From Nitrospirota bacterium (GTDB taxonomy: Bacteria; Nitrospirota; Nitrospiria; JACQBZ01), in NCBI GenBank assembly GCA_016200255.1, contig JACQFA010000095.1:112-64111 (forward strand): a DNA stretch of 64,000 bases. The letters are read 5' to 3'. The position numbers and the translations under genes are program-made. A model generated the notes under the pieces. It was not told where the DNA came from, did no database searches, and saw only the letters and a list, made by a program, of their open reading frames with translations. Shown here in pieces: positions 4,633 to 33,717 of the stretch. Every line of letters starts with the position of its first letter. Within the stretch, counting starts at the first letter, position 1.

Positions 4633-4802
4633 CGGCGCCTCCCCCATGTTGTTGGATTGTGATATAAGAACCGGACGAAATCCGGAGTTTCTACATATAA
4701 TCTTCTTAAATGGGTTTGTCAAGTGCCCCAAATTCCTTTGACAGTCTCGATGACAAATGGTATATCAGATTGAACTATCGATACGAAAGGAACGAACCGG
4801 CC

Positions 4803-8253: not shown

Positions 8254-8283
8254 CGAAAAGGAACGACGCCGGAAACGGGCGGC

Positions 8284-8871: not shown

Positions 8872-8949
8872 GGTTGCATTCCACGTATCTGATGCGTTAA
8901 ACTGACGGCATTATAAACGTTCTCATGTCCGGCAACAAGGAGTCTTCCC

Positions 8950-9402: not shown

Positions 9403-9470
9403 AATTATTTTCCCGCTGCAACGATTGCAAAACCAAAATGGACCAACACTAAAAACAGGAGGGTGAGGCA

Positions 9471-9899: not shown

Positions 9900-9964
9900 C
9901 ATCAAGACACGCTTCACGGTCAAAACGGCCGGGGTCCGCACTGTAACGGCCCCGGCCATAAACC

Positions 9965-20422: not shown

Positions 20423-21373
20423 TTACGGGATTACAATCGTGTCTCCCGATTGGATCACAAGATTTTTCTTGGGATCTTCGCTTGAAATAATATCATCGTA
20501 GCGGATTCGGAACTTGGTTTCGGTGGAGGTCGCTGGATCTTTTCGAAAAACCGCGATCCCGTTTTTAGAAGCAAACGGCGTAAATCCTCCGGCCATGGAA
20601 ACGGCTTGCAAGACCGTGATCCGTTCCTTTAAGGGGTACTTTCCAGGCTTAACGACTTCTCCCAGAATGTAATAAAAATAACTGTTGATGCTGGATACCA
20701 GAACCGAGACCTCCGGCGTGGAGATATAATCTTTCATTCGTTGGGTAATGAGATTTTTCAATTCCCCCGTGGAAATACCGCTGGCCTGGATATCCCCAAT
20801 GAGCGGCAGTGAAACTTTCCCATCCGGCCTCACCGTAACCGTCCGTGAAAGATCGGCATTTTTCCAGACCATGATCTCCAGCACATCCTCCGGACCGATT
20901 CGATATTCATCCACCACCCGTTCACCATCGTTATTCGATCGGGGAAAATCAATCAACAAGGTATTGTTTTGGGTTCGGACATCCGGCTTGATGGACTGAT
21001 TGAGAGAGATCTCCAACTTAATCGCCAGGTGAGGATTTCGACCTTCCTGTAGAGCGATCTCCCGAACAATACCTTTATCCACCTTGATCAAGCGACCGTA
21101 CGAACCGCGGGTCATGGAGAGAAGATTGATGACCACTCGCGGCGGGTTCTCCAATAACACGTACGTATACGTGATCGGTTTCTCGCCCTGAATCACGATC
21201 TCCGTCTTGTCCGAAAGATCCATCACTCGAAGATCGGTGAGGGTCTGTTCGCCTTGCGAGGACGATGCCACCGAAGCCGGCATCGAACTGCAGGCCGAGA
21301 TCAACAGGCCAAGCATGCCGATGACGGCCGTTGCATAATTATATCGTCTTCCCATATTCACCGCACTGCTCAC
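20423..21373 (-). CDS. wza: Polysaccharide export lipoprotein (Wza/OPX) with AMIN domain
   Basis: Lipobox LISAC, AMIN-like LENPPRVVINL, Poly_export YRIGPEDVLEI..VRPDGKVSLPLIG and SLBB GEVVKPG. Short, lacking a C-terminal OM helix. Confidence 0.9.
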   Translation of the reverse strand: MSSAVNMGRRYNYATAVIGMLGLLISACSSMPASVASSSQGEQTLTDLRVMDLSDKTEIVIQGEKPITYTYVLLENPPRVVINLLSMTRGSYGRLIKVDKGIVREIALQEGRNPHLAIKLEISLNQSIKPDVRTQNNTLLIDFPRSNNDGERVVDEYRIGPEDVLEIMVWKNADLSRTVTVRPDGKVSLPLIGDIQASGISTGELKNLITQRMKDYISTPEVSVLVSSINSYFYYILGEVVKPGKYPLKERITVLQAVSMAGGFTPFASKNGIAVFRKDPATSTETKFRIRYDDIISSEDPKKNLVIQSGDTIVIP

Positions 21374-21885
21374 TGATCCGCCACAAAGACATGATTTCCA
21401 CCCTGACCCTGGGCCTTCGCCAGGAGTCCTTCCGCTTTCTGGATCAACCCCGTCACATCATTGGCATTGGTCGGAAAGCAGGATACCCCAATGCTGATGG
21501 TACGGTGGTCTTTTCCCGGTCCGGTTTCAAATGTGTAATGCTCCACCCGTTCACGGATCCGCCGCCCGACGTTCACGGCATTCTCTAAATCCGTGTAGTG
21601 AAGGACGATAAAAAAGCTGTTGTCCAACCGCTCTCCCAAGAGATCCGTCACCCGAATCTCATCCCGCATGAGATAGCCCAACCTCCGGTGCACGGCCTCC
21701 TCCGTAGCGGCATCCACATGGGTCTTTATCCCGTCGAGTTGAATGACCAGCACCGAAAAATAATAGAGATACCGTGTGGCCTTTCGAACTTCAAGCTCCA
21801 ACAGGTACTCAAAAAGATTTCGGTCCAACGGTTGGGTCCAACGGTTGTCAACCATCTTTTCCGGATTCAATGAATTTTGCGTCAT
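21370..21885 (-). CDS. Stand-alone degenerate GGDEF-domain protein (intact RxxD I-site, LDNSF in place of GGDEF)
   Basis: GGDEF fold features FSVLVIQLD, RVTD-LLGER-LDNSF, TISIGVS and KAQGQGGN. Confidence 0.85.
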   Translation of the reverse strand: MTQNSLNPEKMVDNRWTQPLDRNLFEYLLELEVRKATRYLYYFSVLVIQLDGIKTHVDAATEEAVHRRLGYLMRDEIRVTDLLGERLDNSFFIVLHYTDLENAVNVGRRIRERVEHYTFETGPGKDHRTISIGVSCFPTNANDVTGLIQKAEGLLAKAQGQGGNHVFVADQ

Positions 21886-21946: not shown

Positions 21947-23422
21947 TTAGGAAACCGGTCCCGATGGATCCGGTTCACCATCCAAATTGCATTGTCGGAT
22001 CTTGTATAAAAGCGCCTTGTAACTGATCTGCAGAAGTCGGGCCGCCGCCTTGCGGTTCCATCGGGTCTGCTCCAGAGCCTTCAAAATCGCTTCACCCTCG
22101 GCTTTTTTCATGGCTTCACGAGCCACGTGTTTGAGGGAGGTTAACGGTGAACGGCTGATCAACTCGCGTGGCTTCTCCGGCGCGGGGGGATGGAACTCAA
22201 CGGGAGCCGACGCAACCGGAACGGTTTTCGGCCTGATCTTCTTACGGCTGTCACTCACGTATTGTTGGACGACCATGTCTTCGCGCCCCATAATCACAAC
22301 CCGCTTGATCAGGTTCTCCATCTCCCGCACGTTCCCCGGCCAGTCATAATCCATCAAACTTTGTAACGTGGCGGGGCTCAGCCGATAGCACTCTTTATTA
22401 TACTGTTGGTTGTACTTCTGCAAAAAGCACTCAACCAACAACGGGATATCCTCTCTGCGCTCCCGAAGAGGGGGCAGAAAAATGCTCACCACATTCAACC
22501 GATAATAGAGATCTTCTCGAAAGGTCCCATCCGCAACGGCCTTTTCAAGGTCCTTATTGGTCGCGGCTAGAATCCGGACATCCACCTTCAACTCATTTCC
22601 GCCGATAAGGGAAAATTCTCCCCGTTGTAGAACATGCAGGAGCTTGGACTGAAGTTCAAAAGGAATATCGCCGATTTCATCGAGAAAGATCGTCCCATGA
22701 TTGGCAATCTCGAACTTTCCGGGACGCCGGCGGAACGCTCCTGTGAAAGAACCCTTTTCATAACCAAACAGTTCACTTTCGAGAAGTCCTTCCGGAATCG
22801 CAGGGCACAGGACCGTAACAAACGGTTTCCCCGCACGATTTGAGCATTCAGAAAGACTGCGTGCCACCAACTCCTTACCGGTACCGCTCTCTCCACGGAT
22901 GAGAATCGTGACGTCCGTATTGGCCACATGGTCGATGACCGCCCTTACTTCCTGCATCCGCGGACTGGTTTCCAGAAGCAACTGGGGATGGTAGCCTCTT
23001 TTTCCATTCACGGTGGTTTGTGCAATAATCTCGGCCGGGGTCAAAACAACCCCCCGCAATTTTCCAAAAGCTTCCAAAACACTGGTTTTTAACTCCTGGG
23101 GGAGAAACGGCTTGGTTAAAATCCTCCATGAAGCCGGGCGTGTTAGATCCTGCAATAGAGGAAGCTGCATCTGACCGGAGAGTAAAATAACCTGTGACGA
23201 TTGTCCAAGTCGTGTCAGGAATTGCAGTTGCTGTAAAGTTTCCGGATTAATCCTCAAAATATCATAAACCACTACGGATGGCTTAATCGATTCCAACTCT
23301 TCTAGAAAATTCTCCGGGTTAGAGGGCATGTATACCTGTTGATCAAAACGAGAAATAAAGCTCTTTAAATAATTTCTCATTATTTGATCAGTACTTATGA
23401 GAAATATCCGACCGTTTTCCAT
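21947..23422 (-). CDS. Sigma54-dependent enhancer-binding protein (atypical REC, AAA+, HTH_8)
   Basis: GESGTGKE, ESELFGYEKGSFTGA, FLDEIGD, FREDLYYRLNV, WPGNVRE and a C-terminal HTH. Probable start MENGRIF at 23422. Confidence 0.93.
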   Translation of the reverse strand: MENGRIFLISTDQIMRNYLKSFISRFDQQVYMPSNPENFLEELESIKPSVVVYDILRINPETLQQLQFLTRLGQSSQVILLSGQMQLPLLQDLTRPASWRILTKPFLPQELKTSVLEAFGKLRGVVLTPAEIIAQTTVNGKRGYHPQLLLETSPRMQEVRAVIDHVANTDVTILIRGESGTGKELVARSLSECSNRAGKPFVTVLCPAIPEGLLESELFGYEKGSFTGAFRRRPGKFEIANHGTIFLDEIGDIPFELQSKLLHVLQRGEFSLIGGNELKVDVRILAATNKDLEKAVADGTFREDLYYRLNVVSIFLPPLRERREDIPLLVECFLQKYNQQYNKECYRLSPATLQSLMDYDWPGNVREMENLIKRVVIMGREDMVVQQYVSDSRKKIRPKTVPVASAPVEFHPPAPEKPRELISRSPLTSLKHVAREAMKKAEGEAILKALEQTRWNRKAAARLLQISYKALLYKIRQCNLDGEPDPSGPVS

Positions 23423-23804
23423 AGGAATATCACCAAACAGAACAGCAGGTACCCTAAAGCTGTAATTCCATTGATTCGGAATATTGTGGTAAAACTTTTC
23501 CATATTATAGCATCTTTAAAGCTAAATTGTCATTTAAATGCATGGGCATTATCAAGGTAATCTGGAATATGTTTAGGGTAGATTGTATTAAGTGGCTTTT
23601 TTACGCACTAGATTTGTCAACAAAGTGAGACCAGTTCCGATCGCAAACAATGCCACAACTTCACTTGTTTTAATGATTTCCGTTGAAAGGTTAAATATAA
23701 CCCCAAATAACAAGAGGGTAAGCCCTGAGATAAAAAGACAGACCTGGCCGTATCGCTTCCGCATAATCTAACCCTCCTAGTTGAACACTACCCCAATCTA
23801 TTTA

Positions 23805-23854: not shown

Positions 23855-25456
23855 TTAAAATTCTGTGCTTAACCCAAGCAGTACACTGTTCAAATCATCC
23901 GTCGTTTTTGCATTCGTTATCCCCCCTCCCTTGGTACCCGTGCCTGAAAAGTTAATAATATAATCCCTGAAAAGATATCGGATAGATATCCAGAGATTCG
24001 ATTTGAGACGATAACGCCCTTCCGCGTGGAATCGAATCGCATGAGAGGACGCATCGTCCCCATTGTTCACCGGATGTTCATTTACCTTTAAGATCGGCAA
24101 ATAATCAACTCCGATGCCGGTCGCCAAATTGGATGTAAGAAGCAGGCGTCCCTCAAAGCCAATACTGGGTCCGTAATATCGCGTGTTGGTAAAGAACTGG
24201 GAATCCGTTGAGGAAACCGGATAGGTGTACCAGGCATATCCAATCCGACCAATCAGTTCCAAATCGGTCCTACCAGGCCAAAGAATGTACCGATACTGCA
24301 AATGGATGGCATACCAATAGGGCCGGGCGTGGACATTAATCGAGCCGCTGTTGCTCAGACGATCGAGTTTAACAAACCCGATTTGATAATCGGCATCCAG
24401 ACCCAGAGATGGGACGACCCAGTATTCACCGGAAACACCCGCCAGTGGAAAGGTTGAGATTTTACGGTCGAGCGCCAATTGGTCCGAAGTTAGAGAAAAC
24501 TTTGCCCAGCCCAACCCGGTACTCAGTTCAAGTTTTCCCCTTGAGACTTTGTGTTCTAAAGACCGCTTTTCCTTGACCTCTCTTTCTTTGGCCTGTTTCT
24601 CTCTCTGAGACGCTTGCTCCATGGCCATCCAGTCGCGCTCTTGCTGTGCCAACAGTTCATCCCTTCTCGAAGTCAACTCGGATAAAACTTTGGGAGATGG
24701 CTTAAAGTGCACATACTGACCCTTCTCAACGGTTTGTCCTTTTAACAAACGAGACGGCTTGATTATGGAAAACCTCTCATCGGCGCGGACCACGGTCAGG
24801 TCACCCACGTTTACTTTTTCCACCCCGATCATTTCTCGTGTAAAGGGATGGCGATTCACCTTGACGATACGAAATATCTGCAGCTTCATTCCATCCCCCA
24901 GTCCCTGCAACCGACCTGCATTGATCGTGATCGTCTTGCCTTTGTCCTTCACTTCGGTCACAACTGCTTGGTATGGAAGCCGGCCGATCAGCTTGTCCAT
25001 GATAGTCCGAACCCCTTTTTCAACAGCCTCAGGGCTTTTCCAGTCCTTCATGACAATAAATTCTCGGGCAAAGGGGTCGCCCGTCTCGCCTTCAAAAAGC
25101 GTGAGAACGATCTTGAGATCCTTGCCTTTAATTTCCACAATTCCCGTGATGATACCGTCTAATTCAAATTTCTTTCCCATGTCGCTCAAGTCCGGCGCGG
25201 ACAAGGGAAGTTCTTTGGAAGGATTTTGCTGTGGAATAACTTCAAATCGGAATGTGGCTGCAAGCTCCCGCCTCATCTCTTTTCCGATGTTCTTTGCAAG
25301 TCCCTGGTGAGTCCGATCTTCAAGACCCAAAAACCCGATCCTTTTAAAAACAACGACGCCTTTATCGGACTGGGCTTGCAGGACACTCGACGAACTCAGA
25401 AGGATTACCAAGCAAAGAATGATCGATGGAATGATTCGATGGCCGTTCTTGAGCAA
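23855..25456 (-). CDS. Outer-membrane protein: CsgG/TolB-N-like and FlgT_C-like periplasmic domains plus C-terminal beta-barrel
   Basis: TTG start at 25456 behind GGAGG; signal peptide ending LQA; ITINAG..G...G...HPFT segment; charged coiled linker; barrel ending in Phe (LGLSTEF). Confidence 0.65.
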   Translation of the reverse strand: MLKNGHRIIPSIILCLVILLSSSSVLQAQSDKGVVVFKRIGFLGLEDRTHQGLAKNIGKEMRRELAATFRFEVIPQQNPSKELPLSAPDLSDMGKKFELDGIITGIVEIKGKDLKIVLTLFEGETGDPFAREFIVMKDWKSPEAVEKGVRTIMDKLIGRLPYQAVVTEVKDKGKTITINAGRLQGLGDGMKLQIFRIVKVNRHPFTREMIGVEKVNVGDLTVVRADERFSIIKPSRLLKGQTVEKGQYVHFKPSPKVLSELTSRRDELLAQQERDWMAMEQASQREKQAKEREVKEKRSLEHKVSRGKLELSTGLGWAKFSLTSDQLALDRKISTFPLAGVSGEYWVVPSLGLDADYQIGFVKLDRLSNSGSINVHARPYWYAIHLQYRYILWPGRTDLELIGRIGYAWYTYPVSSTDSQFFTNTRYYGPSIGFEGRLLLTSNLATGIGVDYLPILKVNEHPVNNGDDASSHAIRFHAEGRYRLKSNLWISIRYLFRDYIINFSGTGTKGGGITNAKTTDDLNSVLLGLSTEF

Positions 25457-25701
25457 TTGACCTCCTGCGGCATCATACTCAAATTTTGTTGGATGAAGAA
25501 CCACTCAAATGGCTTGCCATTCTAACACGAAGCATTGAAGGATTCAAAACATTAAACAACTGCATCAGAACCATTTTTTTCATTCACCACTATGTACTAT
25601 TGCGTACAAGTCATGACAAAAATTGTTCGTTTTGGATGCATTTTATCGAAACTTGAAAACCGACCGATAGAAAGATCAAGCGGTTATGGGACCAACACGA
25701 A

Positions 25702-25717
25702 TGGCATAAATGTTGCT
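25702..25717 (+). promoter_or_regulatory. Sigma54 (-24/-12) promoter
   Basis: TGGCAT-AAATG-TTGCT matches TGGCAC-N5-TTGCW with exact GG-N10-GC spacing, about 40 nt before riboswitch 1. Confidence 0.75.
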
Positions 25718-25758
25718 CCATTAGCGATCAGGTTACCGTTCTAGTAAGTACAACTTTT

Positions 25759-25847
25759 CCTTTGCTCAGAGCAAACCAGGGGAAACTCTGGGACGCAGAG
25801 CAACGGGGCTACCGCCGATGAGGCCATGCCCGCCGAGCCGCCAAAGG
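25759..25847 (+). ncRNA. GEMM-I (c-di-GMP-I class) riboswitch, A20 variant (candidate c-AMP-GMP sensor), copy 1
   Basis: P1 CCTTTG/CAAAGG; GCAAACCAGGG-GAAA-CTCTGGGACGC P2 with GAAA tetraloop; P3 followed by GCC. Position equivalent to Vc2 G20 is A (25770). Confidence 0.9.
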
Positions 25848-25872
25848 TTCTCTCTTTGGCGGCTATTTTTAT
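25836..25872 (+). terminator. Intrinsic terminator (expression platform of riboswitch 1)
   Basis: AGCCGCCAAAG-gttctct-CTTTGGCGGCT followed by ATTTTTAT. The 5' arm overlaps the aptamer P1 3' strand. Confidence 0.8.
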
Positions 25873-25993
25873 GCGCGGAGGCCCACAGAGAATAGACCAC
25901 ATTACTGGACTGGGCAATTTTGACCAGACCGCGTTATGTTCTTACGGGTATGTATAGTGTGACTAAGACAAAAGATTAAGGATTCTGATTTTA

Positions 25994-26081
25994 CCTTTGC
26001 TCAGAGCAAACCAGGGGAAACCCTGGGACGCAGAGTAACGGGGCTAACGCCTGATGGCCATGCCCGCCGAGCCGCCAAAGG
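25994..26081 (+). ncRNA. GEMM-I riboswitch, A20 variant, copy 2
   Basis: Near-identical copy 235 nt downstream: CCTTTGCTCAGAGCAAACCAGGGGAAACCCTGGGACGCAGAG...GCCGAGCCGCCAAAGG; A20 at 26005. Confidence 0.9.
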
Positions 26082-26103
26082 ATCTCTTTTGGCGGTTGTT
26101 TTA
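26070..26103 (+). terminator. Intrinsic terminator (expression platform of riboswitch 2)
   Basis: GCCGCCAAAG-gatctc-TTTTGGCGGT followed by TGTTTT, then GGAGG RBS and ATG at 26126. Confidence 0.75.
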
Positions 26104-26125
26104 TGTGCGGGGAGGTTAAATCATC

Positions 26126-28513
26126 ATGCGGCACAGCATTAAAAAACTCGGGTTGTTCCTGACCTTAAATATTCTCGTTCTTTTTTCCCTTTCCTACGGG
26201 ACCGCCGCTCTTGCGGGAGATGCCATCCTAACATGGAACCCCAACACGGAACCGGACCTAGCCGGATATAAAATTTATTATGGAACAGCCTCCGGCAGTT
26301 ATGGAGCCCCCATTGACGCCGGGAATCAAACAACCTATACCATAACAGGCTTGGGATACGGAACTTACTACTTTGCGGTCAAGGCCTATGATACAACTGG
26401 AAATTTGAGCGGCTCCTCGAACGAGGTAAACAAAACACTTTCGGATACGACACCACCCGTGATCTCGGCCATCAGCGCCGGCGGAATCACCAGCACCGGC
26501 GCCACAATTTCCTGGACCACGGATGAACCTGCAACTTCTCTGGTTGAATACGGCACCACTACGGCCTACGGATCTTCAACTCCGTTCGATTCAACTTTGG
26601 TCATCGGCCACAACAAAACCCTCGGCGGGCTTCAAGCCTCCATGATCTATCACTACCGCATCCGAAGCGCTGATGCCACCGGCAACCTCGCCATATCGGG
26701 CGACAACACATTTGTCACTGCCGCCGCGCCGGACACCACCCCCCCGGTGATCTCCGGCATTACAGCCGGCAGCGTGACCAGCACCAGCGCCACGATCTCG
26801 TGGACCACCGATGAGCCTTCGGATACCCAGGTCCAGTACGGAACAACGATGTCCTACGGAGCTTCGACCATCCTAAACTCATCTTTGGTGACCTCGCACA
26901 GTCAATCGTTGACCGTCCTTCAGCCCTCCACGCTGTATAATTTCAGAGTGCTAAGCCGGGATGCCGCCGGAAATCTGGCCACATCGGGAAACAATACATT
27001 CACAACGTCCGCGCCCCCCGATACCACCCCGCCCGTGATATCCGGAATCACGGCAAGCAACATAACCAATACGGGTGCGGTCATCACCTGGACCACCAAC
27101 GAAACTGCTAACTCTCAGGTTGAATACGGCACCACTACCGCCTATGGTTCATTGACAACGCTGGATTCCGCTCTGGTCACAAACCACAGTGCCACCTTAA
27201 ACGGTTTGACCGCCTCCATAACCTATCACTACCACGTCAAGAGCGCCGACGCCGCCGGAAACCTCGCCGTCTCAAACGACAATACCTTTATCACGTCGGC
27301 GCCGCCGGATACCACGCCGCCCCTTCTTTCCGGAATCACGGTAAGCAGCGTAACCAACACCGGTGCGGTCGTCACCTGGACTACCAACGAAGCGTCCACC
27401 TCCCAGGTGGAATATGGTCCAACCGTGACATATGGCTCTTCGTCGAACCTGAGTTCTACCCTGGTCACCGGCCACAGCATCACCTTAACCGGTCTGACCG
27501 CCTCTACTCTCTATCATTACTACGTGAAAAGCGCCGATGCCGCCGGAAACCTCGCGGTCTCGGATGACAATACATTCACCGCATCCGCTCCCCCCGATAC
27601 GACGGGTCCGGTTCTCTCTCTGATTACGGCAAGTAACATCACGGCGGCCGACGCCACCATTACCTGGGGTACGGACGAACCGGCCTCGTCCCAAGTGGAG
27701 TACGGATTGACGGCCTTTTATGGCAACAGCACAACGGTCAACGCCACACTTCTCAACAGCCATAGTCAGATACTCACCGGTCTTCAAGCATCGACGCTGT
27801 ACCATTACCGGGTGAAGAGCGCCGACAGCGCAGGCAACCTGTCCGTTTCAGGCGACCTTGTCCTTACCACCGGCAGCGCTGCGGATACGACACCGCCAGG
27901 AAACATCCAGAACTTTTCAGCCAAAGAGACAGGTCATCAAATCTCCCTGAGCTGGCTCAATCCGCCTGACCTGGATTTTATCGGTGTTCGAATCCGCTAC
28001 CGGACGGATCATTATCCAACCGATACCAACGACGGAGTTTTGCTGGGCGACTTCACCGGTCTTCCGAATCAGGCCATGAGCACGATCCAAACCCCGATTG
28101 TGAAACACGTCACTTACTACTATGCCGCTTCAACGTATGACAGCTCCGGAAATTATCAACATACCGCCTACGCTTCGGTGACAACCTCTCTTACTTCAGA
28201 CGGCTCAGGCAGCCCCGACAATGTCACCATGAGCGGCGGATGCGGCATGGTTCGTCCTGGCTCCGGCAAGCCTCCGGGCCCCGGTCAGTCGGCGGACATG
28301 ATCTTCCTTCTGGTCGTGCTTCTGATTGCGATCCTGAAACGGGAAATACAAAAAAAGAAAAGTTTTGACAGAGTCCGGATCATTTCGGGTATAATATTAA
28401 GTTCGTTGTTTTATCATGGGGCGTTTAAACCGGAAGAGATTTCGGAGTTATATTTTGAACAATTCAATCGCACCGTTTTTGACAATAAAACGCTTTTGTA
28501 TTCAGGCGGTTAA
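26126..28513 (+). CDS. Secreted FN3-repeat surface protein with GGC-TM C-terminal anchor
   Basis: Signal peptide (AALA|GD), N-terminal FN3 (WNPNTEPDLAGYKIYYG), five 96-aa FN3-like repeats, a further FN3, then SGGCGMVRPG..KPPGPGQ, a hydrophobic helix and KR. Confidence 0.88.
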   Translation: MRHSIKKLGLFLTLNILVLFSLSYGTAALAGDAILTWNPNTEPDLAGYKIYYGTASGSYGAPIDAGNQTTYTITGLGYGTYYFAVKAYDTTGNLSGSSNEVNKTLSDTTPPVISAISAGGITSTGATISWTTDEPATSLVEYGTTTAYGSSTPFDSTLVIGHNKTLGGLQASMIYHYRIRSADATGNLAISGDNTFVTAAAPDTTPPVISGITAGSVTSTSATISWTTDEPSDTQVQYGTTMSYGASTILNSSLVTSHSQSLTVLQPSTLYNFRVLSRDAAGNLATSGNNTFTTSAPPDTTPPVISGITASNITNTGAVITWTTNETANSQVEYGTTTAYGSLTTLDSALVTNHSATLNGLTASITYHYHVKSADAAGNLAVSNDNTFITSAPPDTTPPLLSGITVSSVTNTGAVVTWTTNEASTSQVEYGPTVTYGSSSNLSSTLVTGHSITLTGLTASTLYHYYVKSADAAGNLAVSDDNTFTASAPPDTTGPVLSLITASNITAADATITWGTDEPASSQVEYGLTAFYGNSTTVNATLLNSHSQILTGLQASTLYHYRVKSADSAGNLSVSGDLVLTTGSAADTTPPGNIQNFSAKETGHQISLSWLNPPDLDFIGVRIRYRTDHYPTDTNDGVLLGDFTGLPNQAMSTIQTPIVKHVTYYYAASTYDSSGNYQHTAYASVTTSLTSDGSGSPDNVTMSGGCGMVRPGSGKPPGPGQSADMIFLLVVLLIAILKREIQKKKSFDRVRIISGIILSSLFYHGAFKPEEISELYFEQFNRTVFDNKTLLYSGG
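26444..27883 (+). repeat. Five tandem coding repeats with exact 288-bp period (FN3-like domains)
   Basis: DTTPP/DTTGP codons start at 26444, 26732, 27020, 27308, 27596 and 27884. Confidence 0.92.
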
Positions 28514-30794
28514 TGCCATCATGATGATGCTCATCTGCACCAACAGTTTTGTTTTTGCGGCCGATGCCGTCCTGTCATGGGATCCAAACACCGAACCGGA
28601 TCTGGCGGGATACAAGGTCTATTATGGAACGGTATCCGGAGCACACACCCAAGTGATCTCGGTGGGACTGACAAGCACCCCCACAGCGCCGCAGTATACG
28701 GTCAGCAATCTGAACAGCGGCACGACTTATTATTTCTCGGTCACAAGCTTCGACAGCTCATCAAACGAGAGCGGGTTTTCGAATGAAGTGTCCAAAACAT
28801 TTCCGGCCGAGGCGACCACGCCAATGGATATCACCGATTTTATAGTGGTCCCGGGAAAGGGACAGATCAGCCTAAGCTGGAACGATCCGTCCGATCCCAA
28901 CTATGCCGGGGTTCGTATCCGGGTTCGCACGGATGGAACATATCCGACCGATCCGAACAACGATGGCGATCTTGTAGGAGACTTTCCGGGAGAACCTCTG
29001 CAGAGCAAAAGCTATGTGCATTCCGATCTTAAGGCCGGGACCGCCTATTATTATTCCGCATTCAGCCAGGATTCCAGCGGTAATTTCACGCCCGCCGTCC
29101 ATGCCACGGCCACCCCGCTTGCCTCGGATCAACCCAATCGAGGCCTTTCCTCGCAGAATATCAGCGGCGGTTGCGGGATGGTTCGTCCCGGCAACGGCAA
29201 ACCTCCAGGCCCCGGTCAGGCGGCCGACATCATGGCCCTCCTTGTTCTGATCCTGGTTACATTGGTAAGAAAGTGGACACGACCCAAAAATTTCATTCAA
29301 TGGGTGGCGGCCTCGTTTCTTAATCCCGTCTTGAAATTCCATGGAATATATTTTCTAGGTGCTTTTCTTTTTACAACAGCGTTTCTGTCTCTCTATCCGA
29401 ATGGCGCCGAAGCACAGACCGCGAATATCACGGTCGATGCGGCAGCCGGCCAGGGGACCTTGGTCCAGCACTCGCTGAATATCAATCAGGATCCAACCGT
29501 GGCGCGCGAACAACAGCGAGTCGCTGACGTCGGAATGCGGATGATTCGAAATCACACCCAGACGGATATTACGAACCTTGAGTATGTTTCGACCGCGGAA
29601 GGCCAATATGACTGGACTTCCCTTGACGCCAGCATGGACAGCGTCATCGCGTCAGGGGCCAAACCCTATTTCCGGCTGGGTTATATGCCCGACTGGCTGG
29701 CGGACAAATCTTACGGCATTACCAATTCAAGTGATCCCAATCATCTCTACAAATTCAATCCCCCCTCTGACTTCGCCAAATGGCAGCAGCTCGTCTACGA
29801 TGTGGTCTACCATCTAAACGTCGTGAAGAAGTACGGCATCACATTCTTCACGGTCTGGAACGAACCGGACTGCTGCGGTTCCTTGTATCTGACCGGGCAG
29901 AGCGGGTACTTTCAGCTTTATAAATACGCCGCGCAAGGCGTGAAGTCGGCCGACCCTTCCGCAAAGGTGGGAGGGCCTGTCGCTTCGTGGCTGACATCGG
30001 GATTCACCCAGGGACTGATCACATACTGCGCCGCCAACAGCGTTCCTCTGGATTTCATCGATTTTCATTGGTATGACCCGTCGCCCGGAACGTTGGCCCC
30101 GCTGCTTTCGACCGCGCGTACCTGGCTTAACGGTGCCGGGTTTTCCACGGCTCCCATTTTCGTCTCGGAATGGAACGGATCGTATACCTGGACTGATTCC
30201 GGGGCGGTCACCCGCCAAGCAGGGCATATCGCCCCGGTCGCCTACTATCTGACCGAAGCCGGCGCGGACGGCTTCTTCTGGCGGTTGTTGCGCCCCAGCC
30301 CCAGCACCTCCGGGATCATTCAAAACGGCGGGGATCCTGTCTATCCTCAATATAATACTTATAAAATGATCAGCATGCTGGCAAGCACCCGGGTGAGTAC
30401 AACCGGCCTGCAAATGGACTCGAATGGTTTAGGCGTCGGAGCGATCTCTTCGATGGATGCCGGCAAAGTCACCGTTTTGATCTGGAATTACCAAAATACC
30501 GGTACCAGTGCTTTCACGGTTAATGTAACGGTCAACAATTTGCCATCGAGTTTCTCCGGCAAATCGATCCAGCTGGCCAGGTACTTGATGGATGCAACGC
30601 ACAGCAATTACACCTACAGCACCAGCAACTATGAATTAGAGCAAGTTGAGAATTTGACTCTCTCACCCGCAAGTTCTCTGACGAAAAGCGTCGGCCTTCC
30701 GGCGAGCGCAGTATCGCTCATCGCCCTGACTCCCGGCGGCACGGCTTCTGACACGACGCCGCCCGCTCCGCCGACCGGTTTAACCGTAAAATGA
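28416..30794 (+). CDS. FN3-FN3-GGC-TM module fused through a second signal peptide to a GH39-like glycoside hydrolase
   Basis: N-terminal part paralogous to 26126..28513. Internal FLGAFLFTTAFLSLYPNGAEA|Q. GH-A/GH39 motifs WNEPD, DFIDFHWY and FVSEWN. Ends SDTTPPAPPTGLTVK. Start codon uncertain. Confidence 0.82.
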   Translation: MGRLNRKRFRSYILNNSIAPFLTIKRFCIQAVNAIMMMLICTNSFVFAADAVLSWDPNTEPDLAGYKVYYGTVSGAHTQVISVGLTSTPTAPQYTVSNLNSGTTYYFSVTSFDSSSNESGFSNEVSKTFPAEATTPMDITDFIVVPGKGQISLSWNDPSDPNYAGVRIRVRTDGTYPTDPNNDGDLVGDFPGEPLQSKSYVHSDLKAGTAYYYSAFSQDSSGNFTPAVHATATPLASDQPNRGLSSQNISGGCGMVRPGNGKPPGPGQAADIMALLVLILVTLVRKWTRPKNFIQWVAASFLNPVLKFHGIYFLGAFLFTTAFLSLYPNGAEAQTANITVDAAAGQGTLVQHSLNINQDPTVAREQQRVADVGMRMIRNHTQTDITNLEYVSTAEGQYDWTSLDASMDSVIASGAKPYFRLGYMPDWLADKSYGITNSSDPNHLYKFNPPSDFAKWQQLVYDVVYHLNVVKKYGITFFTVWNEPDCCGSLYLTGQSGYFQLYKYAAQGVKSADPSAKVGGPVASWLTSGFTQGLITYCAANSVPLDFIDFHWYDPSPGTLAPLLSTARTWLNGAGFSTAPIFVSEWNGSYTWTDSGAVTRQAGHIAPVAYYLTEAGADGFFWRLLRPSPSTSGIIQNGGDPVYPQYNTYKMISMLASTRVSTTGLQMDSNGLGVGAISSMDAGKVTVLIWNYQNTGTSAFTVNVTVNNLPSSFSGKSIQLARYLMDATHSNYTYSTSNYELEQVENLTLSPASSLTKSVGLPASAVSLIALTPGGTASDTTPPAPPTGLTVK

Positions 30795-30804
30795 GGTAAC
30801 CGAC

Positions 30805-33717
30805 ATGGAATCATTGACTGCGAATGAAACCACGAGAGTTTTTGACCGCATGATGGTCCGTCCTCCCATGCAGACGAAAATCAAACTCCACAGTGCAATC
30901 TCACCTAAGATCCAAACGCGGCTCGCTCTGTTGATGGGCGCCCTCTTGCTGTTCGGCTCAAATCCAGCCTGGGCCGCCAGCCCGATCAGCGTCAAACTGA
31001 CGGTGACAGAGCCGGCCGGTATCAGCCGCACCCAGGAACCCGTCACGCTCGGTATCCCGATCGGCCAGAGCTATAACGTGATGGATGTCGCATCGCTGAG
31101 GATCACGGCTGCGGACGGGACGACCTCCCTTCCGGCCCAGTTCACCGTTCTATCCCGATGGGGAGGCCTGGCGACGGATACCACCAAACCAATCAACTGG
31201 GTCCAGACCGATTTCGAAGCGGATGTTCCGGCCAGCACAAGCGCGACCTTCTACTTGAAGAACGACGGCAGCTACGCTCCAACCGGGATGGCGGCCACAA
31301 CGTCCTCCGCCTTTACCGTGAACACCGGCGCCGCCACCTTCACCATCAGCCGAACCGCCTTTAATCTTTTTGATCAAGTGAATCTCGGCGGAGGGATGAT
31401 CATCAGCAGCCCCGCCAATGACGGATTCGTCTATACCGATAAGAACGGGACCTCGTTCTACGCATCCAAAGGCAGCGTGCTGGATTCCTCGGTCGAGATG
31501 GATGGACCGATCCAGACCATCGTAATGGTCCACGGCAAACTATCGAGCGGCTCGGCGAATCTCAAAGGCGGCGATGCGTCGACCTATCTGGGGGGTAGCG
31601 ACACAGCCCAAAACTATGATCTGGAATACCGGGTCCGATTTCACTTTTATAAGAGCAAAAGCTATGTGATCGCGGAAAATACACTGATCAACGACGGAAA
31701 CGGCTTCATCGGGACCTGGAGCAGCACCTGTCCAAACTGCAACAACAGCCTGTATGCCCAATCGATGACGTTGAACACGACACTCAGCATCGGATCGAGC
31801 CATCAAATCACATTTCAAGGATACGGGGACACGACAACCAGCTCCACGGACAGCTATCAGTTCCTGCAGGCCCACAGCGTGGCGAGCCTGACGAGCGAGA
31901 CCCCGAACTTCAGCTATAGCTCGACCAAGAACGGCGGAGCGGGCGGGACGGGCGGGACCCGAGCGGTCGGCTATGCCGATCTCGGAGACGGGTCAAACGG
32001 CGTAACGGTCGCGGTCAAATATTTCTGGCAGCTCTACCCAAAGGGGTTTCGGATCAACAACACGACGCTTTCGGCCGATCTCCTTCCGCAAACCGGCTCC
32101 AACCATTTTGTTCGCGGCGGTTGGCACGTGACCAATGAGCTTCTATACAACTTCCACACCGGGAGCTTTTCATCCTCCGGCGCGGCCGCCACCGTGAGCG
32201 CCTATCAATCGCCTGTCGACGCGCGTTTCGATCCGAACTGGTTCGCCGATACACAGGCCTGGGGACTGGATGCACCGGCCGGATTGACCATGCCGACGCC
32301 GGACCTGGTCAATGCCTTGAACCGCTGGGAGCAGCTGCAGCGGGCCAAAGTCGATGCCACTCAGTCATCGAATGGGGCATCGATCACGACCTTCCGGGAA
32401 AACCGGATGCTGCTCGGGAGCGCCAACACCTGGGACCATGCCTGGTACGGATGGGACGCCTTCGGCGATCGACGGTGGAAATTCTTCAGTTCGGCCTGCA
32501 GCGGAGCGGGTTGCAACCTCACAAACACGCCTTATTTGTCCGGGGTTCAGTACGACTGGCCCTTCAGCCTTCTCCTCCATTATTTGAGGACGGGAAACCG
32601 CGGCTTCTACGACATGTGGATGGATATGTCAAATCATAACGTTGGTTTTGCCGTCCAGTACGGGGGGCATCTCTCCGGTGAAGCCGGCTGGTTTCCAAAT
32701 CAGGTCTACTGGGAGGATGGGGGACCGTTCTCGACCACGTCGACCTATACCGGTTTGATGGAGCAGAACCAGGGTTTCTGTCTGAGTTATTTGTATACGG
32801 GCAACAAGCGATTTTTGGATGCCTGCAAGGCGATGGCCGATGAAGGATGGACCTATTGGACTTCTTATGAGAGCACGGCCCCAAATTATATCAAGTCTGA
32901 ACTCCGCATCGCCGGATGGAATATATTCAGGCAACTTAATTACTACAAAGTGAGCGGGGATGCGACCTACCTGAACCAAGCCCTGACGATCTTCACGAAC
33001 GGGCTTTTGGCGACGGAGCAATCCGCGGCCCCTCCGACCGGGATCGGAAGCAACGGCCAGGGCTATGTGTATGACGATCTTGCCGTCAGAGACTGCACGA
33101 CGCAGGATGCGACCACCGGGGTGATTACCTACCAGGTGCGCGTTCTCATGCTCGGTTATATAACGGACCCGCTCACCGAACTCCACCGCCTCAGCGGATC
33201 CCAGGCGGTGCTGGACTTTTTGACCCGAATGCTGAACTTTGTACAGACAACCCCGTATGTGGGCGGAGTAACCGACTCCAGCGGTAATTATCTTCCCAAC
33301 CAAACACCGTACTGCTACAACCCGGCCACCGGATCCCGCCAATTCCGGGACATCCAGGTCATCTACAATTACTTCTTCGCCGGCGGGTATTCCTACCTCT
33401 ACGCAACGACCCGTAATTCAACCCATCTTAATTTCGCCCGCAGCCTCTTCAAGGATTCGGTCTTTTACTGGGAAGCCGTTTCGAATACCTATGTTAACCC
33501 AACCTCCCTCACCCCGGTCTATCTCGGATACGAACCGCAGACGAGCAAACAGCAGGGCTGGACCGGGCGATTCCATCAAGGTTATCTGTCAATGGAATAC
33601 CAGATGCAGAAAAACGGCGGCGTCCTTCCGAGTTGGTATCCCGGCACGCCTCCGGTGCCCGTTTCTTCCGGCGATACCACACCGCCGGCCCCGCCGACGG
33701 GGTTGAAAGTGCAATAA
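30805..33717 (+). CDS. Secreted PcRGLX/YetA-like (exo-rhamnogalacturonan lyase-like, RIFT barrel plus alpha/alpha barrel) protein
   Basis: Signal peptide ending AWA; EPAGISRTQEPVTLGIP, LPAQF.VLSRW and WYGWDAFGD; YD...LLHYLRTG. Ends GDTTPPAPPTGLKVQ. Confidence 0.7.
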   Translation: MESLTANETTRVFDRMMVRPPMQTKIKLHSAISPKIQTRLALLMGALLLFGSNPAWAASPISVKLTVTEPAGISRTQEPVTLGIPIGQSYNVMDVASLRITAADGTTSLPAQFTVLSRWGGLATDTTKPINWVQTDFEADVPASTSATFYLKNDGSYAPTGMAATTSSAFTVNTGAATFTISRTAFNLFDQVNLGGGMIISSPANDGFVYTDKNGTSFYASKGSVLDSSVEMDGPIQTIVMVHGKLSSGSANLKGGDASTYLGGSDTAQNYDLEYRVRFHFYKSKSYVIAENTLINDGNGFIGTWSSTCPNCNNSLYAQSMTLNTTLSIGSSHQITFQGYGDTTTSSTDSYQFLQAHSVASLTSETPNFSYSSTKNGGAGGTGGTRAVGYADLGDGSNGVTVAVKYFWQLYPKGFRINNTTLSADLLPQTGSNHFVRGGWHVTNELLYNFHTGSFSSSGAAATVSAYQSPVDARFDPNWFADTQAWGLDAPAGLTMPTPDLVNALNRWEQLQRAKVDATQSSNGASITTFRENRMLLGSANTWDHAWYGWDAFGDRRWKFFSSACSGAGCNLTNTPYLSGVQYDWPFSLLLHYLRTGNRGFYDMWMDMSNHNVGFAVQYGGHLSGEAGWFPNQVYWEDGGPFSTTSTYTGLMEQNQGFCLSYLYTGNKRFLDACKAMADEGWTYWTSYESTAPNYIKSELRIAGWNIFRQLNYYKVSGDATYLNQALTIFTNGLLATEQSAAPPTGIGSNGQGYVYDDLAVRDCTTQDATTGVITYQVRVLMLGYITDPLTELHRLSGSQAVLDFLTRMLNFVQTTPYVGGVTDSSGNYLPNQTPYCYNPATGSRQFRDIQVIYNYFFAGGYSYLYATTRNSTHLNFARSLFKDSVFYWEAVSNTYVNPTSLTPVYLGYEPQTSKQQGWTGRFHQGYLSMEYQMQKNGGVLPSWYPGTPPVPVSSGDTTPPAPPTGLKVQ

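What the first reader, a model, noticed from the sequence alone, without database searches (positions are those of the whole stretch)
25702..33717. Candidate new system: cyclic-dinucleotide-gated surface scaffold plus dockable glycan-processing enzymes inserted in an EPS locus
Seen, in order: sigma54 promoter, two riboswitch-terminator units, a long anchored FN3 stalk, a short anchored FN3 stalk fused to GH39, and a lyase-like enzyme. The cassette lies on the opposite strand inside a roughly 46-kb EPS locus that also encodes an I-site GGDEF protein and a cohesin/dockerin pair. Known: EPS loci often carry matrix-processing hydrolases (PslG is GH39), and GEMM-I riboswitches control surface functions. 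Inference: a biofilm-matrix remodelling or dispersal apparatus, displayed on stalks of two lengths and switched on only at high second-messenger level, possibly cGAMP rather than c-di-GMP. I do not recognise this combination as a described system.
Basis: partly seen in the sequence, partly recalled or inferred. Interest (0 to 1): 0.88.

Follow-up and report, generated by a model that had tools for sequence, protein, structure and literature searches.

The report
Riboswitch-gated FN3 stalks with tailed glycanases
A small operon inside a sugar-polymer (EPS) gene cluster is switched by two cyclic-dinucleotide riboswitches and encodes membrane-anchored stalk proteins plus two sugar-cleaving enzymes whose short conserved tails look like the piece missing from the tip of the stalks, which hints at a new way of docking enzymes onto a scaffold.

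Summary
Window 25702-33717 (+) holds a sigma54-type promoter and two complete GEMM-I riboswitch-terminator units. Three genes follow: a 7-domain FN3 stalk with a C-terminal GGCGM..PPGPGQ+TM anchor, a 2-domain stalk fused through the same anchor to a GH39 hydrolase, and a PL26-like lyase-fold enzyme. The cassette lies antisense in a rhamnose/XrtA-type EPS locus.

New here:
- Both aptamers carry A at the G20 position, the cGAMP/bispecific signature. The genome has two Ser-type (Hypr-like) GGDEFs.
- Promoter, riboswitch and stalk recur together in Nitrospirota MAGs.
- Both enzymes end in PPxPPTGLxV[KQ]. This reads as linker plus FN3 strand A, the part the stalks' mature N-terminal FN3 lacks.
- Other enzyme families beside stalks carry this tail, and stalk-enzyme fusion arose at least twice.

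Docking has only weak computational support (ipSAE 0.54, best control 0.01). The A-less FN3 type is far commoner than the tail. Ligand, location and substrate are inferred. GEMM-regulated FN3 genes are prior art in Geobacter.

The parts
25702..25717 (+). sigma54-type -24/-12 promoter (TGGCAT-N5-TTGCT)
   Evidence: Single exact consensus match in the window, expected 0.08. GGCA[CT]N5TTG[CA] lies 41-57 nt upstream of the first aptamer in 9 of 10 loci compared.
25760..25845 (+). GEMM-I aptamer 1, A at the Vc2-G20 position
   Evidence: RF01051 59.8 bits, gathering score 35. The A is read at model position 11.
25836..25872 (+). intrinsic terminator 1; its 5' arm overlaps the aptamer's 3' strand
   Evidence: 12-bp stem plus U run. 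-23.8 kcal/mol, z -3.26.
25995..26079 (+). GEMM-I aptamer 2, A at the Vc2-G20 position
   Evidence: RF01051 60.6 bits; sequence.
26070..26104 (+). intrinsic terminator 2, followed by GGGGAGG and the ATG at 26126
26126..28513 (+). long FN3 stalk (795 aa): signal peptide, N-terminal FN3 without strand A, 5 FN3 repeats, DUF4959-like FN3, anchor, cytoplasmic tail
26216..26473 (+). mature N-terminal FN3 that starts at strand B (GDAILTW...)
   Evidence: Alignment A4, 20 sequences, 54-71% identity to the first. It starts at the column of about residue 19 of the internal repeats.
28232..28348 (+). C-terminal anchor SGGCGMVRPGSGKPPGPGQSAD + TM + KRE
   Evidence: Invariant GGCGM..P..G.PPGPGQ.AD in A3. 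No NCBIfam model matched at E<=10.
28521..30794 (+). short stalk fused to GH39 (757 aa from Met36)
   Evidence: The fusion is conserved in P0017-P0019 at 77-87% overall identity.
29163..29390 (+). internal anchor + TM1, short loop, TM2 (former signal peptide of the GH39)
   Evidence: AF2 helices at 231-252 and 270-290 of P0016.
29418..30749 (+). GH39 catalytic module with WNEP and SEWN glutamates
   Evidence: PF01229 103 bits. PDB 4m29 7.7e-24. Foldseek GH39 hits, E down to 2.6e-30.
30750..30791 (+). C-terminal tail DTTPPAPPTGLTVK
30805..33717 (+). PL26-like (PcRGLX-fold) enzyme, 970 aa from the first ATG; the signal peptide is at about residues 38-57
   Evidence: PF21345 39.1 bits. AF2 pLDDT 86. 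5xq3_A E 1.1e-26, TM 0.60/0.64.
33673..33714 (+). C-terminal tail DTTPPAPPTGLKVQ
   Evidence: Conserved in 6 of 7 orthologues. Disordered in the monomer model.
21947..23503 (-). sigma54-dependent response regulator (candidate activator of the promoter)
   Evidence: Sigma54_activat 220.6 bits. TIGR02915 319.7 bits, below its cut-off of 502.6.
21370..21885 (-). degenerate GGDEF with an intact RxxD I-site (candidate c-di-GMP receptor)
   Evidence: PF00990 48.7 bits; motifs read.

Best explanation
This is a cyclic-dinucleotide-gated operon that equips an EPS locus of a Nitrospirota-type genome with tethered glycan-cleaving enzymes.

Regulation. Transcription starts at a sigma54 promoter. It must then read through two successive ON riboswitches. 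In each, ligand binding stabilises P1 (5' CUUUG pairing with 3' CAAAG), which removes the 5' arm of a 12-bp terminator. The A at the G20 position predicts that the ligand is 3'3'-cGAMP, or both cGAMP and c-di-GMP.

Products. There are two type-I membrane 'stalks' of 7 and 2 FN3 domains, held by a conserved GGCGM..PGPGQ-TM anchor. There are also two Sec-exported enzymes, a GH39 hydrolase and a PL26-fold enzyme.

Docking (inferred, odds about 0.4-0.45). Each enzyme's C-terminal PPxPPTGLxV tail supplies the missing strand A to the strand-A-less FN3 at the tip of a stalk. This would tether the enzymes at two fixed distances from the membrane.

Substrate (inferred). The enzymes trim or release the rhamnose-containing EPS made by the surrounding locus.

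Shown: sequence elements, folds, conservation, co-occurrence. Inferred: ON logic, ligand, docking, substrate, compartment.
For: Regulation:
- Aptamers, terminators and promoter are present.
- 12 of 12 A-type aptamers in the loci compared share 5' CUUUG...CAG-A-GCAAAC. Most also keep the 3' GCCGCCAAAGG and a downstream CUUUGGCGG arm.
- The ligand-free minimum-energy fold forms the terminator.
- A Geobacter GSU1761 cGAMP riboswitch activates a reporter (PMC8835794 passage).
- A in place of G20 marks cGAMP-binding or bispecific GEMM-Ib (PMC6140456 passages).
- 2 of 18 GGDEF-type hits carry Ser with GGDEF, the Hypr signature (PMC6456294 passages).

Enzymes: GH39. PL26-like fold over the full length. 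rmlABCD lies in the locus.

Module conservation:
- L009 has riboswitch, stalk and lyase. L010 has two stalks and the lyase.
- 9 of 16 Nitrospirota stalk loci have GEMM-I upstream on the same strand.
- 9 of 10 loci have the sigma54 motif.

Docking:
- fn3 profile matches to the N-terminal domains begin at profile position 16.
- The tail aligns with the linker plus strand A that opens a true FN3 in P0021.
- The tail is kept in 6 of 7 lyase orthologues and in GH39 relatives P0017-P0021.
- In this genome the N-terminal domain, the anchor and the tail each occur twice, and only in this operon.
- Tailed ORFs beside stalks include a pectate-lyase-like beta-helix above cut-off, weak PL matches below cut-off, and a metallophosphatase.
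- The strict tail regex hits 4 of 287 ORFs in 18 stalk loci and 0 of 1842 in 132 other loci.
- There are two independent stalk-anchor-enzyme-tail fusions: GH39 here and Metallophos in L092.
- Predicted complex of the N-terminal FN3 (A4) with P0003 residues 931-970: ipSAE 0.54 (runs 0.55, 0.54, 0.54), best of 3 controls 0.01. The tool's verdict is 'weak support'. The mark was reached by 58 of 80 solved complexes and 2 of 110 mismatched pairs. At 0.60 or under it was reached by only 7 of those 80 and by both mismatches that passed. Runs agree in at least 93% of contacts; partner pLDDT is at least 55. My own alignments were used, so the counts hold only roughly.
- In AF2 the tail is disordered in P0003 alone (pLDDT below 50). 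In the natural fusion, which also contains the A-less FN3, it scores pLDDT about 85 with a beta bridge.
Against: - The A-less FN3 type is common: 203 of 401 genomes of the phylum at E<=1e-12, with up to 13 copies. The strict tail+stop pattern occurs in only 3 of 401 (the reversed control pattern gave 2 hits). Most such domains therefore have no tailed partner and presumably fold without one.
- In one family the same domain sits at protein C-termini after Ser/Thr linkers, again without strand A.
- The complex score lies in the band the tool calls more often wrong than right unless the guess was likely beforehand. No interface was given.
- No coordinates were available, so the strand that the tail pairs with in the fusion model is unknown.
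- 10 of the 16 Nitrospirota stalk loci show no convincing tailed ORF within the DNA held; several are cut by contig ends.
- No close homologue of the lyase was found in 7 same-family genomes.
- A at G20 alone does not fix selectivity: the Vc2 G20A mutant binds both ligands.
- No uronic-acid pathway gene was seen in the window to match a lyase. This was not searched for specifically.
Confidence: 0.55

Rival explanations
1. There is no docking. The stalks are riboswitch-controlled adhesin or matrix-binding FN3 proteins, as proposed for Geobacter. The enzymes are ordinary free or membrane-tethered periplasmic EPS-processing enzymes of the PslG/AlgL kind. The tail is a leftover of FN3-linker domain shuffling, or a tag for something else.
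For: GEMM-regulated FN3 genes without any described partner exist in Geobacter (PMC2996986 passages). The A-less FN3 is widespread (203 of 401 genomes) while the tail is rare (3 of 401). The domain also occurs at C-termini without strand A. The complex prediction is only 'weak support'. P0021 shows that the same sequence is simply the start of a normal FN3.
Against: The stop codon is kept at the same point of strand A in orthologues down to 53% identity and in unrelated enzyme families. The tail is enriched next to stalks. There are two independent fusions. The tail becomes ordered only in the model that contains the A-less FN3.
Confidence: 0.35
2. The GGCGM..PGPGQ-TM segment is a cleavable sorting signal of the PEP-CTERM, GlyGly-CTERM or MYXO-CTERM kind. 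An unrecognised sortase removes the TM helix and passes the stalk to a lipid or to the EPS, giving true cell-surface display. The same site inside the fusion would then release stalk and enzyme as two products.
For: The layout is the same as known signals: conserved motif, about 15 residues, a hydrophobic helix, then basic residues, with an invariant Cys. It sits at the extreme C-terminus in stand-alone stalks. The locus is of XrtA/PEP-CTERM type (TIGR03013 499 bits, cut-off 393). Some stalks of about 1320 aa seem too long for a periplasm; this is my own estimate.
Against: No exosortase was found in a 96.8%-complete genome (PF09721). No rhombosortase scored above cut-off (24.8 bits against 84); there is only one generic rhomboid. 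No NCBIfam sorting-signal model matches. Only two proteins in the genome carry the motif. ORF1 continues about 55 residues beyond the helix, and this stretch is conserved in L010.
Confidence: 0.25
3. The riboswitches sense c-di-GMP, not cGAMP, as canonical GEMM-I does.
For: They match RF01051. The Vc2 G20A mutant binds c-di-GMP at 53 nM and cGAMP at 120 nM, and some natural GEMM-Ib are bispecific (PMC6140456 passages). 14 of 18 GGDEF-type hits have the canonical Asp. The locus encodes an I-site GGDEF receptor.
Against: All 12 copies of this subtype keep A, whereas the genome's third GEMM-I and the four RF03167-type copies keep G. Two Ser/GGDEF enzymes are present.
Confidence: 0.35
4. This is a foraging device: a cellulosome-like display of a xylosidase-type GH39 and a rhamnogalacturonan-lyase-type enzyme for exogenous plant polysaccharides.
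For: The closest solved relatives are beta-xylosidases and a fungal exo-rhamnogalacturonan lyase.
Against: No transporter or sugar-catabolism genes lie in or beside the cassette. The position inside EPS loci is conserved in L009. Control is by a second messenger. Identity to the characterised enzymes is 13-22%.
Confidence: 0.08

Closest known systems
Geobacter GEMM-Ib (3'3'-cGAMP) riboswitch regulon, including GEMM-regulated fibronectin type III surface-protein genes (Gbem_1796/1798/1799)
   Same: A GEMM-I aptamer with A at the G20 position, a terminator-based ON platform, a downstream secreted FN3 protein, and Ser-type GGDEF enzymes in the genome.
   Different: The setting is Nitrospirota rather than Geobacteraceae. 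There is a sigma54 promoter, two complete units in tandem, a distinct anchor, and tailed glycanases in the same operon. Homology of the FN3 proteins to the Geobacter ones was not tested.
EPS-locus-encoded processing enzymes (PslG, a GH39; AlgL; PelA; BcsZ). Their roles are recalled from memory.
   Same: A glycoside hydrolase or lyase is encoded within the biosynthetic locus. The GH39 is held at the membrane by a hydrophobic helix. PslG (5bx9) is a structural match (E 1.4e-17, rank 49).
   Different: The closest GH39 structures are xylosidases and a glucosidase, not PslG. The enzymes lie on the opposite strand under their own riboswitch control. They carry tails and come with FN3 stalks.
Cohesin-dockerin scaffolds (cellulosome)
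   Same: The idea of enzymes with a short C-terminal docking module binding an anchored, repeat-built scaffold. A true cohesin lipoprotein lies in the same window. The A-less FN3 occurs fused to dockerins elsewhere.
   Different: The cassette has no cohesin or dockerin domain. The proposed tag is about 10 residues that complete a fold, not a folded Ca-binding module.
Donor-strand complementation in chaperone-usher and type V pili, and engineered split domains such as SpyTag/SpyCatcher (recalled from memory)
   Same: An Ig-like beta-sandwich lacking one edge strand is completed by a strand from another polypeptide.
   Different: Here the fold is FN3 and the missing strand is N-terminal strand A. 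The partner is an enzyme's C-terminus. No chaperone, usher or isopeptide chemistry is evident. The mechanism is unproven.
PEP-CTERM/exosortase, GlyGly-CTERM/rhombosortase and MYXO-CTERM sorting signals
   Same: The architecture of motif, TM helix and basic cluster at the C-terminus, a Gly-Gly-Cys core, and an XrtA-type EPS locus.
   Different: There is no PEP motif, no model match, and no exosortase or rhombosortase was found. The segment is used internally in fusions.
PcRGLX, the PL26 exo-rhamnogalacturonan lyase of Penicillium chrysogenum (PDB 5xq3)
   Same: Full-length fold match (E 1.1e-26, TM 0.60/0.64) and a Pfam central-domain hit. The locus makes dTDP-rhamnose.
   Different: Identity is 13%. 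Catalytic residues were not compared. It belongs to a large uncharacterised bacterial family (3741 representatives at E<=1e-3).

Membership tests
GEMM-I / c-di-GMP-I riboswitch (RF01051) | Covariance-model score at or above the gathering score | tested here: met
   60.6 and 59.8 bits against 35, full-length 1-87.
GEMM-Ib (cGAMP-responsive subclass) | Adenine at the position of Vc2 G20 (A14 of Gs1761) | tested here: met
   A at model position 11, directly 5' of the paired GC, in both copies. The rule comes from PMC6140456 passages. Mapping model position 11 to G20 is my own reasoning.
GEMM-Ib (cGAMP-responsive subclass) | Selective binding of 3'3'-cGAMP over c-di-GMP | not testable with these tools
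   Needs in-line probing or ITC. G20A alone gives bispecificity.
sigma54-dependent promoter | GG-N10-GC (-24/-12) consensus, with RpoN and an enhancer-binding protein available | tested here: met
   Transcription start not tested.
Glycoside hydrolase family 39 | Pfam PF01229 above cut-off, (beta/alpha)8 fold, NEP acid/base and nucleophile Glu | tested here: met
   103.4 bits against 26. WNEP and SEWN align with solved xylosidases. N447, E448 and E550 are invariant in A2. Foldseek GH39 hits.
Polysaccharide lyase family 26 (PcRGLX) | Overall three-domain fold | tested here: met
   5xq3_A E 1.1e-26, TM 0.60/0.64. PF21345 39.1 bits against 23.5.
Polysaccharide lyase family 26 (PcRGLX) | Catalytic residues and lyase activity on Rha-GalA | not tested
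   Residues were not compared. Sequence match to PDB covers only about 50 aa (E 3e-5).
Cohesin-dockerin system | Cohesin on the scaffold and dockerin on the enzymes | tested here: not met
   Neither domain occurs in ORF1-3. The only cohesin is at 63000-63326(-). No Dockerin_1 in the genome at E<=0.1.
PEP-CTERM / exosortase sorting | PEP motif signal and an exosortase gene | tested here: not met
   The signal reads PGPGQ. No NCBIfam hit. PF09721 was not found in the 96.8%-complete genome.
GlyGly-CTERM / rhombosortase | Rhombosortase (TIGR03902) above cut-off | tested here: not met
   24.8 bits against 84, on the single generic rhomboid.
Hypr GGDEF (cGAMP synthase), elsewhere in the genome | Ser in place of Asp at GacA position 348, together with GGDEF (not GGEEF) | tested here: met
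   C17:16061-17170 and C56:1166-2167. The rule comes from PMC6456294 passages. Activity not testable.
Strand-complementation docking (proposed) | Acceptor domain lacks a strand that the partner's tail can supply | tested here: inconclusive
   The profile and alignment logic is met. The predicted complex gives weak support (0.54 against 0.01). The acceptor domain type is widespread without tails.

The most novel reading that the evidence does not exclude
This would be a natural 'split-FN3' docking system. Secreted glycan-cleaving enzymes of several unrelated families carry a C-terminal tag of about 10 residues (PPxPPTGLxV). The tag is strand A of an FN3 domain and completes a strand-A-less FN3 at the tip of membrane-anchored stalks of set lengths. 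The same acceptor domain also occurs fused to dockerins. The result would be a non-cohesin scaffold for EPS-processing enzymes, produced only when a cGAMP-type signal opens two riboswitches in series.
Probability: 0.4. Interest if true: 0.9.

Novelty: new variant of a known kind. Interest (0 to 1): 0.74.

Why it matters
Three points would matter if the reading holds.

1. Signalling. A-type (GEMM-Ib-like) riboswitches and Ser-type GGDEFs would extend cGAMP-type signalling into Nitrospirota. That phylum includes manganese oxidisers and nitrifier relatives. It would also give a defined output, EPS processing, behind a sigma54 plus tandem-riboswitch AND gate.

2. Docking. The tail and the A-less FN3 would be a new, very small protein-docking principle. 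It can be tested directly with a peptide and an 85-residue domain. It could serve as a tag/catcher pair and help explain how bacteria place matrix enzymes.

3. Anchor. The GGCGM..PGPGQ-TM segment is an undescribed, lineage-wide C-terminal signal that is also tolerated inside fusion proteins.

Even without docking, the conserved module is a useful marker for riboswitch-controlled matrix remodelling in uncultured groundwater bacteria.

Tried and rejected
- The genome-contig scan with the lyase alignment found no relative. The lyase is absent from the 7 same-family genomes searched with this query.
- Rfam found no riboswitch in 10 more distant lyase loci. Those loci also lack stalks, anchors and tails by regex. 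The association therefore belongs to the stalk, not to the lyase family.
- NCBIfam gave no sorting-signal match for whole proteins or for the 60-residue anchor piece.
- Exosortase, rhombosortase and Dockerin_1 searches of the genome were negative.
- No RNA holder was listed for the stretch, so expression and co-transcription could not be examined.
- Read laying used contigs only. Cover is patchy at low depth and no piece spans the whole stretch.
  - Two contigs bridge aptamer 1 to aptamer 2: X3 record 17, 25771-26027, and X4 record 26, 25629-26023 with 4 letters left out. They may come from the sample the window was assembled from.
  - A joint skipping 245 nt (25811 to 26057) appears in 3 runs with only 22 letters on the shorter side. 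It may be a repeat artefact or a one-unit variant. It was not resolved.
- The terminator scan inside the operon gave 9 sites against 7.5 expected, which is uninformative.
- Composition shows no foreign island.
- Model coordinates are not exposed, so the tail's pairing partner in the fusion model could not be read.
- Paper searches found no paper linking these elements in Nitrospirota: 'Manganitrophus' + 'c-di-GMP' gave 0 papers, and Nitrospir/riboswitch/cyclic di-GMP/fibronectin type III gave 12 unrelated or Geobacter papers. 'Strand complementation' + FN3 + polysaccharide lyase gave none with all three terms among the 10 of 50 listed.
- Supplements were closed. Riboswitch target tables of the Geobacter papers may list FN3 genes that I could not see.
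- The taxon of the window is inferred only. L093, titled a Nitrospirota MAG, appears to be the same genome as G033, a class-mate of G000.

Full report
**Observation.**
- TGGCATAAATGTTGCT (25702-25717) is the only exact match to the sigma54 consensus in the window (expected 0.08; 7 of 100 shuffles had a match). rpoN is in the genome. A sigma54-dependent response regulator lies two genes away on the other strand.
- Rfam finds exactly two families' worth of hits in the 64 kb, both RF01051: 25760-25845 (59.8 bits) and 25995-26079 (60.6 bits), against a gathering score of 35.
- Each aptamer runs into a 12-bp stem followed by a U tract. Stem energies are -23.8 and -22.2 kcal/mol, z -3.3 and -3.5.
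- A GGGGAGG and the ATG at 26126 follow the second unit.
- Two public contigs bridge unit 1 to unit 2. They may stem from the source sample.

**Expression platform and ligand.** The 5' arm of each terminator (AGCCGCCAAAGG) contains the 3' strand of the aptamer. The aptamer's first bases (CUUUG) are complementary to CAAAG in that arm, and they are repeated in the terminator's 3' arm (CUUUGGCGG).
- Without ligand the computed fold is the terminator.
- I therefore infer an ON switch: ligand-stabilised P1 withholds the 5' arm. A Geobacter cGAMP riboswitch that activates a reporter is a precedent (PMC8835794 passage).
- Both aptamers have A at model position 11, the unpaired base just 5' of the paired GC. 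By my reasoning this is Vc2 G20.
- Passages of PMC6140456 state three things. cGAMP riboswitches replace G20 by A. The Vc2 G20A mutant binds c-di-GMP (53 nM) and cGAMP (120 nM). Some natural GEMM-Ib are bispecific.
- The third GEMM-I of this genome, on contig C30, has G.
- A regex scan of the genome found 18 GGDEF-type active-site regions: 14 with Asp, 2 with Asn and 2 with Ser. Both Ser cases carry GGDEF. This is the Hypr signature and the 'Goldilocks' rule described in PMC6456294 passages.
- The ligand is thus probably cGAMP or both dinucleotides. This is not shown.

**Proteins.**
- ORF1 (795 aa) has a signal peptide, an N-terminal FN3, five 96-residue FN3 repeats joined by DTTPP linkers, and a DUF4959-like FN3. 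Then come SGGCGMVRPGSGKPPGPGQSAD, a hydrophobic helix, KRE and about 55 further residues.
- ORF2 (757 aa from Met36, as in the public gene call P0016) has the same N-terminal FN3 and DUF4959-like domain, and the same anchor in the middle of the protein. A second hydrophobic helix follows that looks like a former signal peptide, then a GH39 module.
- The GH39 assignment rests on Pfam (103 bits), on solved xylosidases (7.7e-24) with WNEP and SEWN aligned, and on Foldseek. PslG ranks 49.
- ORF3 folds with pLDDT 86 and pTM 0.88. It matches the PL26 exo-rhamnogalacturonan lyase PcRGLX over its full length (E 1.1e-26, TM 0.60/0.64, 13% identity). Its family is large and uncharacterised (3741 representatives at E<=1e-3).
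- The surrounding minus-strand genes are an EPS locus with rmlABCD and an XrtA-type priming transferase above cut-off.

**Conservation.**
- The lyase has six close relatives (49-83% identity).
- Two metagenome contigs carry the same module. L009 has an A-type GEMM-I with terminator, a 1043-aa stalk with the anchor, the lyase, and further on a close homologue of the window's flanking gene P0015. L010 has the end of a long stalk, a stand-alone 299-aa short stalk that stops right after the anchor, and the lyase.
- The stalk-GH39 fusion recurs in P0017-P0019 (77-87% overall). GH39 also occurs alone with the tail (P0020) or with a full FN3 and then the tail (P0021).
- A scan of species genomes with the anchor-region alignment gave 70 loci. 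Those matching through the anchor are all titled Nitrospirota, Manganitrophaceae or Nitrospiria. Manganitrophus is Nitrospirota.
- Of the 16 loci examined, 9 have GEMM-I upstream on the same strand. Two of these have a heterotypic tandem of RF03167 then the A-type. In two others an RF03167-type copy precedes the stalk and an A-type copy precedes the next gene.
- All 12 A-type copies share CUUUGnnCAG-A-GCAAAC.
- GGCA[CT]N5TTG[CA] lies 41-57 nt upstream of the first aptamer in 9 of 10 loci. The pattern occurs 23 times in 452,928 strand-bases overall.

**The tail and the stalk tip: evidence for docking.** Both enzymes end in DTTPPAPPTGL(T/K)V(K/Q).
- The tail is kept, with the stop at the same place, in 6 of 7 lyase orthologues and in the GH39 relatives.
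- It reads as an FN3 linker plus strand A. In P0021 the same sequence opens a complete FN3.
- The mature stalks begin two to four residues before strand B (…AFA|ADA.LSW…). fn3 profile matches start at profile position 16. In a MAFFT alignment the N-terminal domains start where residue ~19 of the internal repeats lies. This domain is 54-71% identical across 20 stalks.
- In this genome the N-terminal domain, the anchor and the tail each occur twice, and only here.
- In other stalk loci the neighbouring tailed ORFs are a pectate-lyase-like beta-helix (62.5 bits), three weak PL-like proteins below cut-off, a protein without family, and a metallophosphatase.
- A strict tail regex hits 4 of 287 ORFs in 18 stalk loci and 0 of 1842 in 132 other loci.
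- L092 is a second, independent stalk-anchor-signal-peptide-enzyme-tail fusion.
- The same A-less FN3 is found fused to dockerins in small secreted proteins of Acidobacteria and others.
- Predicted complex of the tip (A4) with the last 40 residues of the lyase (A1): ipSAE 0.54 (runs 0.55, 0.54, 0.54), best of three controls 0.01, verdict 'weak support'. The mark was reached by 58 of 80 solved complexes and 2 of 110 mismatches. At 0.60 or under it was reached by only 7 of the 80 and by both passing mismatches. Contacts agree in at least 93%; partner pLDDT is at least 55. My own alignments were used.
- In AF2 the tail is disordered in the lyase alone. In the natural fusion it scores about 85 with a beta bridge. 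I could not see what it pairs with.

**Evidence against docking.**
- The A-less FN3 type is very common: 203 of 401 genomes of the phylum, mostly right after signal peptides. In one family it sits at C-termini after Ser/Thr linkers.
- The strict tail-plus-stop pattern occurs in only 3 of 401 genomes (the reversed control pattern gave 2 hits). The pattern misses known variants.
- In G146 two tailed ORFs sit directly beside a protein with this domain. In G038 the tailed 921-aa protein is on another contig than the stalk-type genes.
- The domain therefore does not generally need a partner.
- I put docking at 0.4-0.45.

**Anchor and compartment.** The anchor consensus is GGC[GAT]M..P…P.PG[QDH].A + helix + basic residues.
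- No known sorting model matches.
- No exosortase or rhombosortase was found in the 96.8%-complete genome.
- The simplest reading is a type-I inner-membrane anchor, so the stalks may stand in the periplasm. A cleaved signal leading to surface display remains possible.

**Comparison and novelty.**
- Already known: GEMM-Ib riboswitches and Hypr GGDEFs; GEMM-regulated FN3 genes in Geobacter (PMC2996986 passages); tandem c-di-GMP-I riboswitches (PMC12452182 passages); GH39 in EPS loci (recalled).
- New: the Nitrospirota-wide sigma54 + A-type riboswitch + anchored-stalk module, the anchor motif, and the strand-A tail shared by unrelated enzymes, with its possible docking role.
- Verdict: a real, conserved, riboswitch-gated EPS-processing operon, which is a new variant of a known kind. 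It carries a testable and possibly new docking principle.

Noticed in passing
window 62946-64000 (-): A cohesin-domain lipoprotein (lipobox LAGC; PF00963 52.2 bits) lies directly downstream of an ORF, cut by the window end, that finishes in a dockerin-like DLDGSGTIDSVDLSLF. Pfam Dockerin_1 did not match at E<=0.1.
   Followed up: partly
proteins P0321, P0327, P0330, P0343 (also P0332, P0338): Small secreted proteins (164-173 aa) consist of a signal peptide, the same strand-A-less FN3 and a dockerin. One is named as from an Acidobacteria MAG. They look like adaptors that would carry this FN3 onto cohesin scaffolds.
   Followed up: partly
G000:C30:18416-18517 (+) (L003 1501-1602): The genome's third GEMM-I has G at the G20 position and a terminator. 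It precedes a 218-aa ORF with a LuxR-type HTH at its C-terminus, judged by eye only.
   Followed up: no
G000:C17:16061-17170 (+) and G000:C56:1166-2167 (+): Two GGDEF proteins carry Ser at the Hypr specificity position together with GGDEF. By eye, one has a GAF-like and the other an FHA-like N-terminal part.
   Followed up: partly
L097 6109-6446; L101 6154-6460; L091 8042-8136 and 10773-10857; L094 8039-8133 and 10774-10855: Manganitrophaceae loci combine a c-di-GMP-I-GGC variant (RF03167, G-type) with the A-type aptamer. The two are either in tandem before the stalk, or split so that the G-type precedes the stalk and the A-type precedes the tailed lyase-like gene. This may be two-ligand logic.
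   Followed up: partly
window 25811-26057: Contigs of three runs join 25811 to 26057, skipping 245 nt (one riboswitch unit), with only 22 letters on the shorter side. This is either a repeat artefact or a population variant with a single unit. A 4-nt deletion at 25948 appears in one run.
   Followed up: no
L197 (G146:C53) 4047-5060, 8079-8858, 8862-10688: Two ORFs without evident signal peptides end in ..TPPSPPTGIMVL and ..TPPNPPTGITVT. The second is followed 4 nt later by a 608-aa ORF that contains the A-less FN3 type internally. This is a different setting for the same pair.
   Followed up: partly
loci L171, L177, L178, L183, L184, L188-L190 (family f2 genomes): The same FN3 type sits at the extreme C-terminus of proteins, ending ...NES..S.EVSKSIY. 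Many genome matches in that family run across one stop codon (TAA, TGA or TAG). Unexplained.
   Followed up: no
L092 9179-11731: A stalk, anchor, signal-peptide-like helix, purple-acid-phosphatase-type metallophosphatase and tail are joined in one 850-aa ORF. In-frame Met codons lie just before the second helix, suggesting a lost stop between two genes.
   Followed up: yes
window 23855-25504 (-): A 549-aa secreted protein with no Pfam or NCBIfam match has a coiled-coil-like middle and a C-terminal half with beta-barrel-like alternation that ends in F. It is transcribed divergently from the cassette.
   Followed up: no
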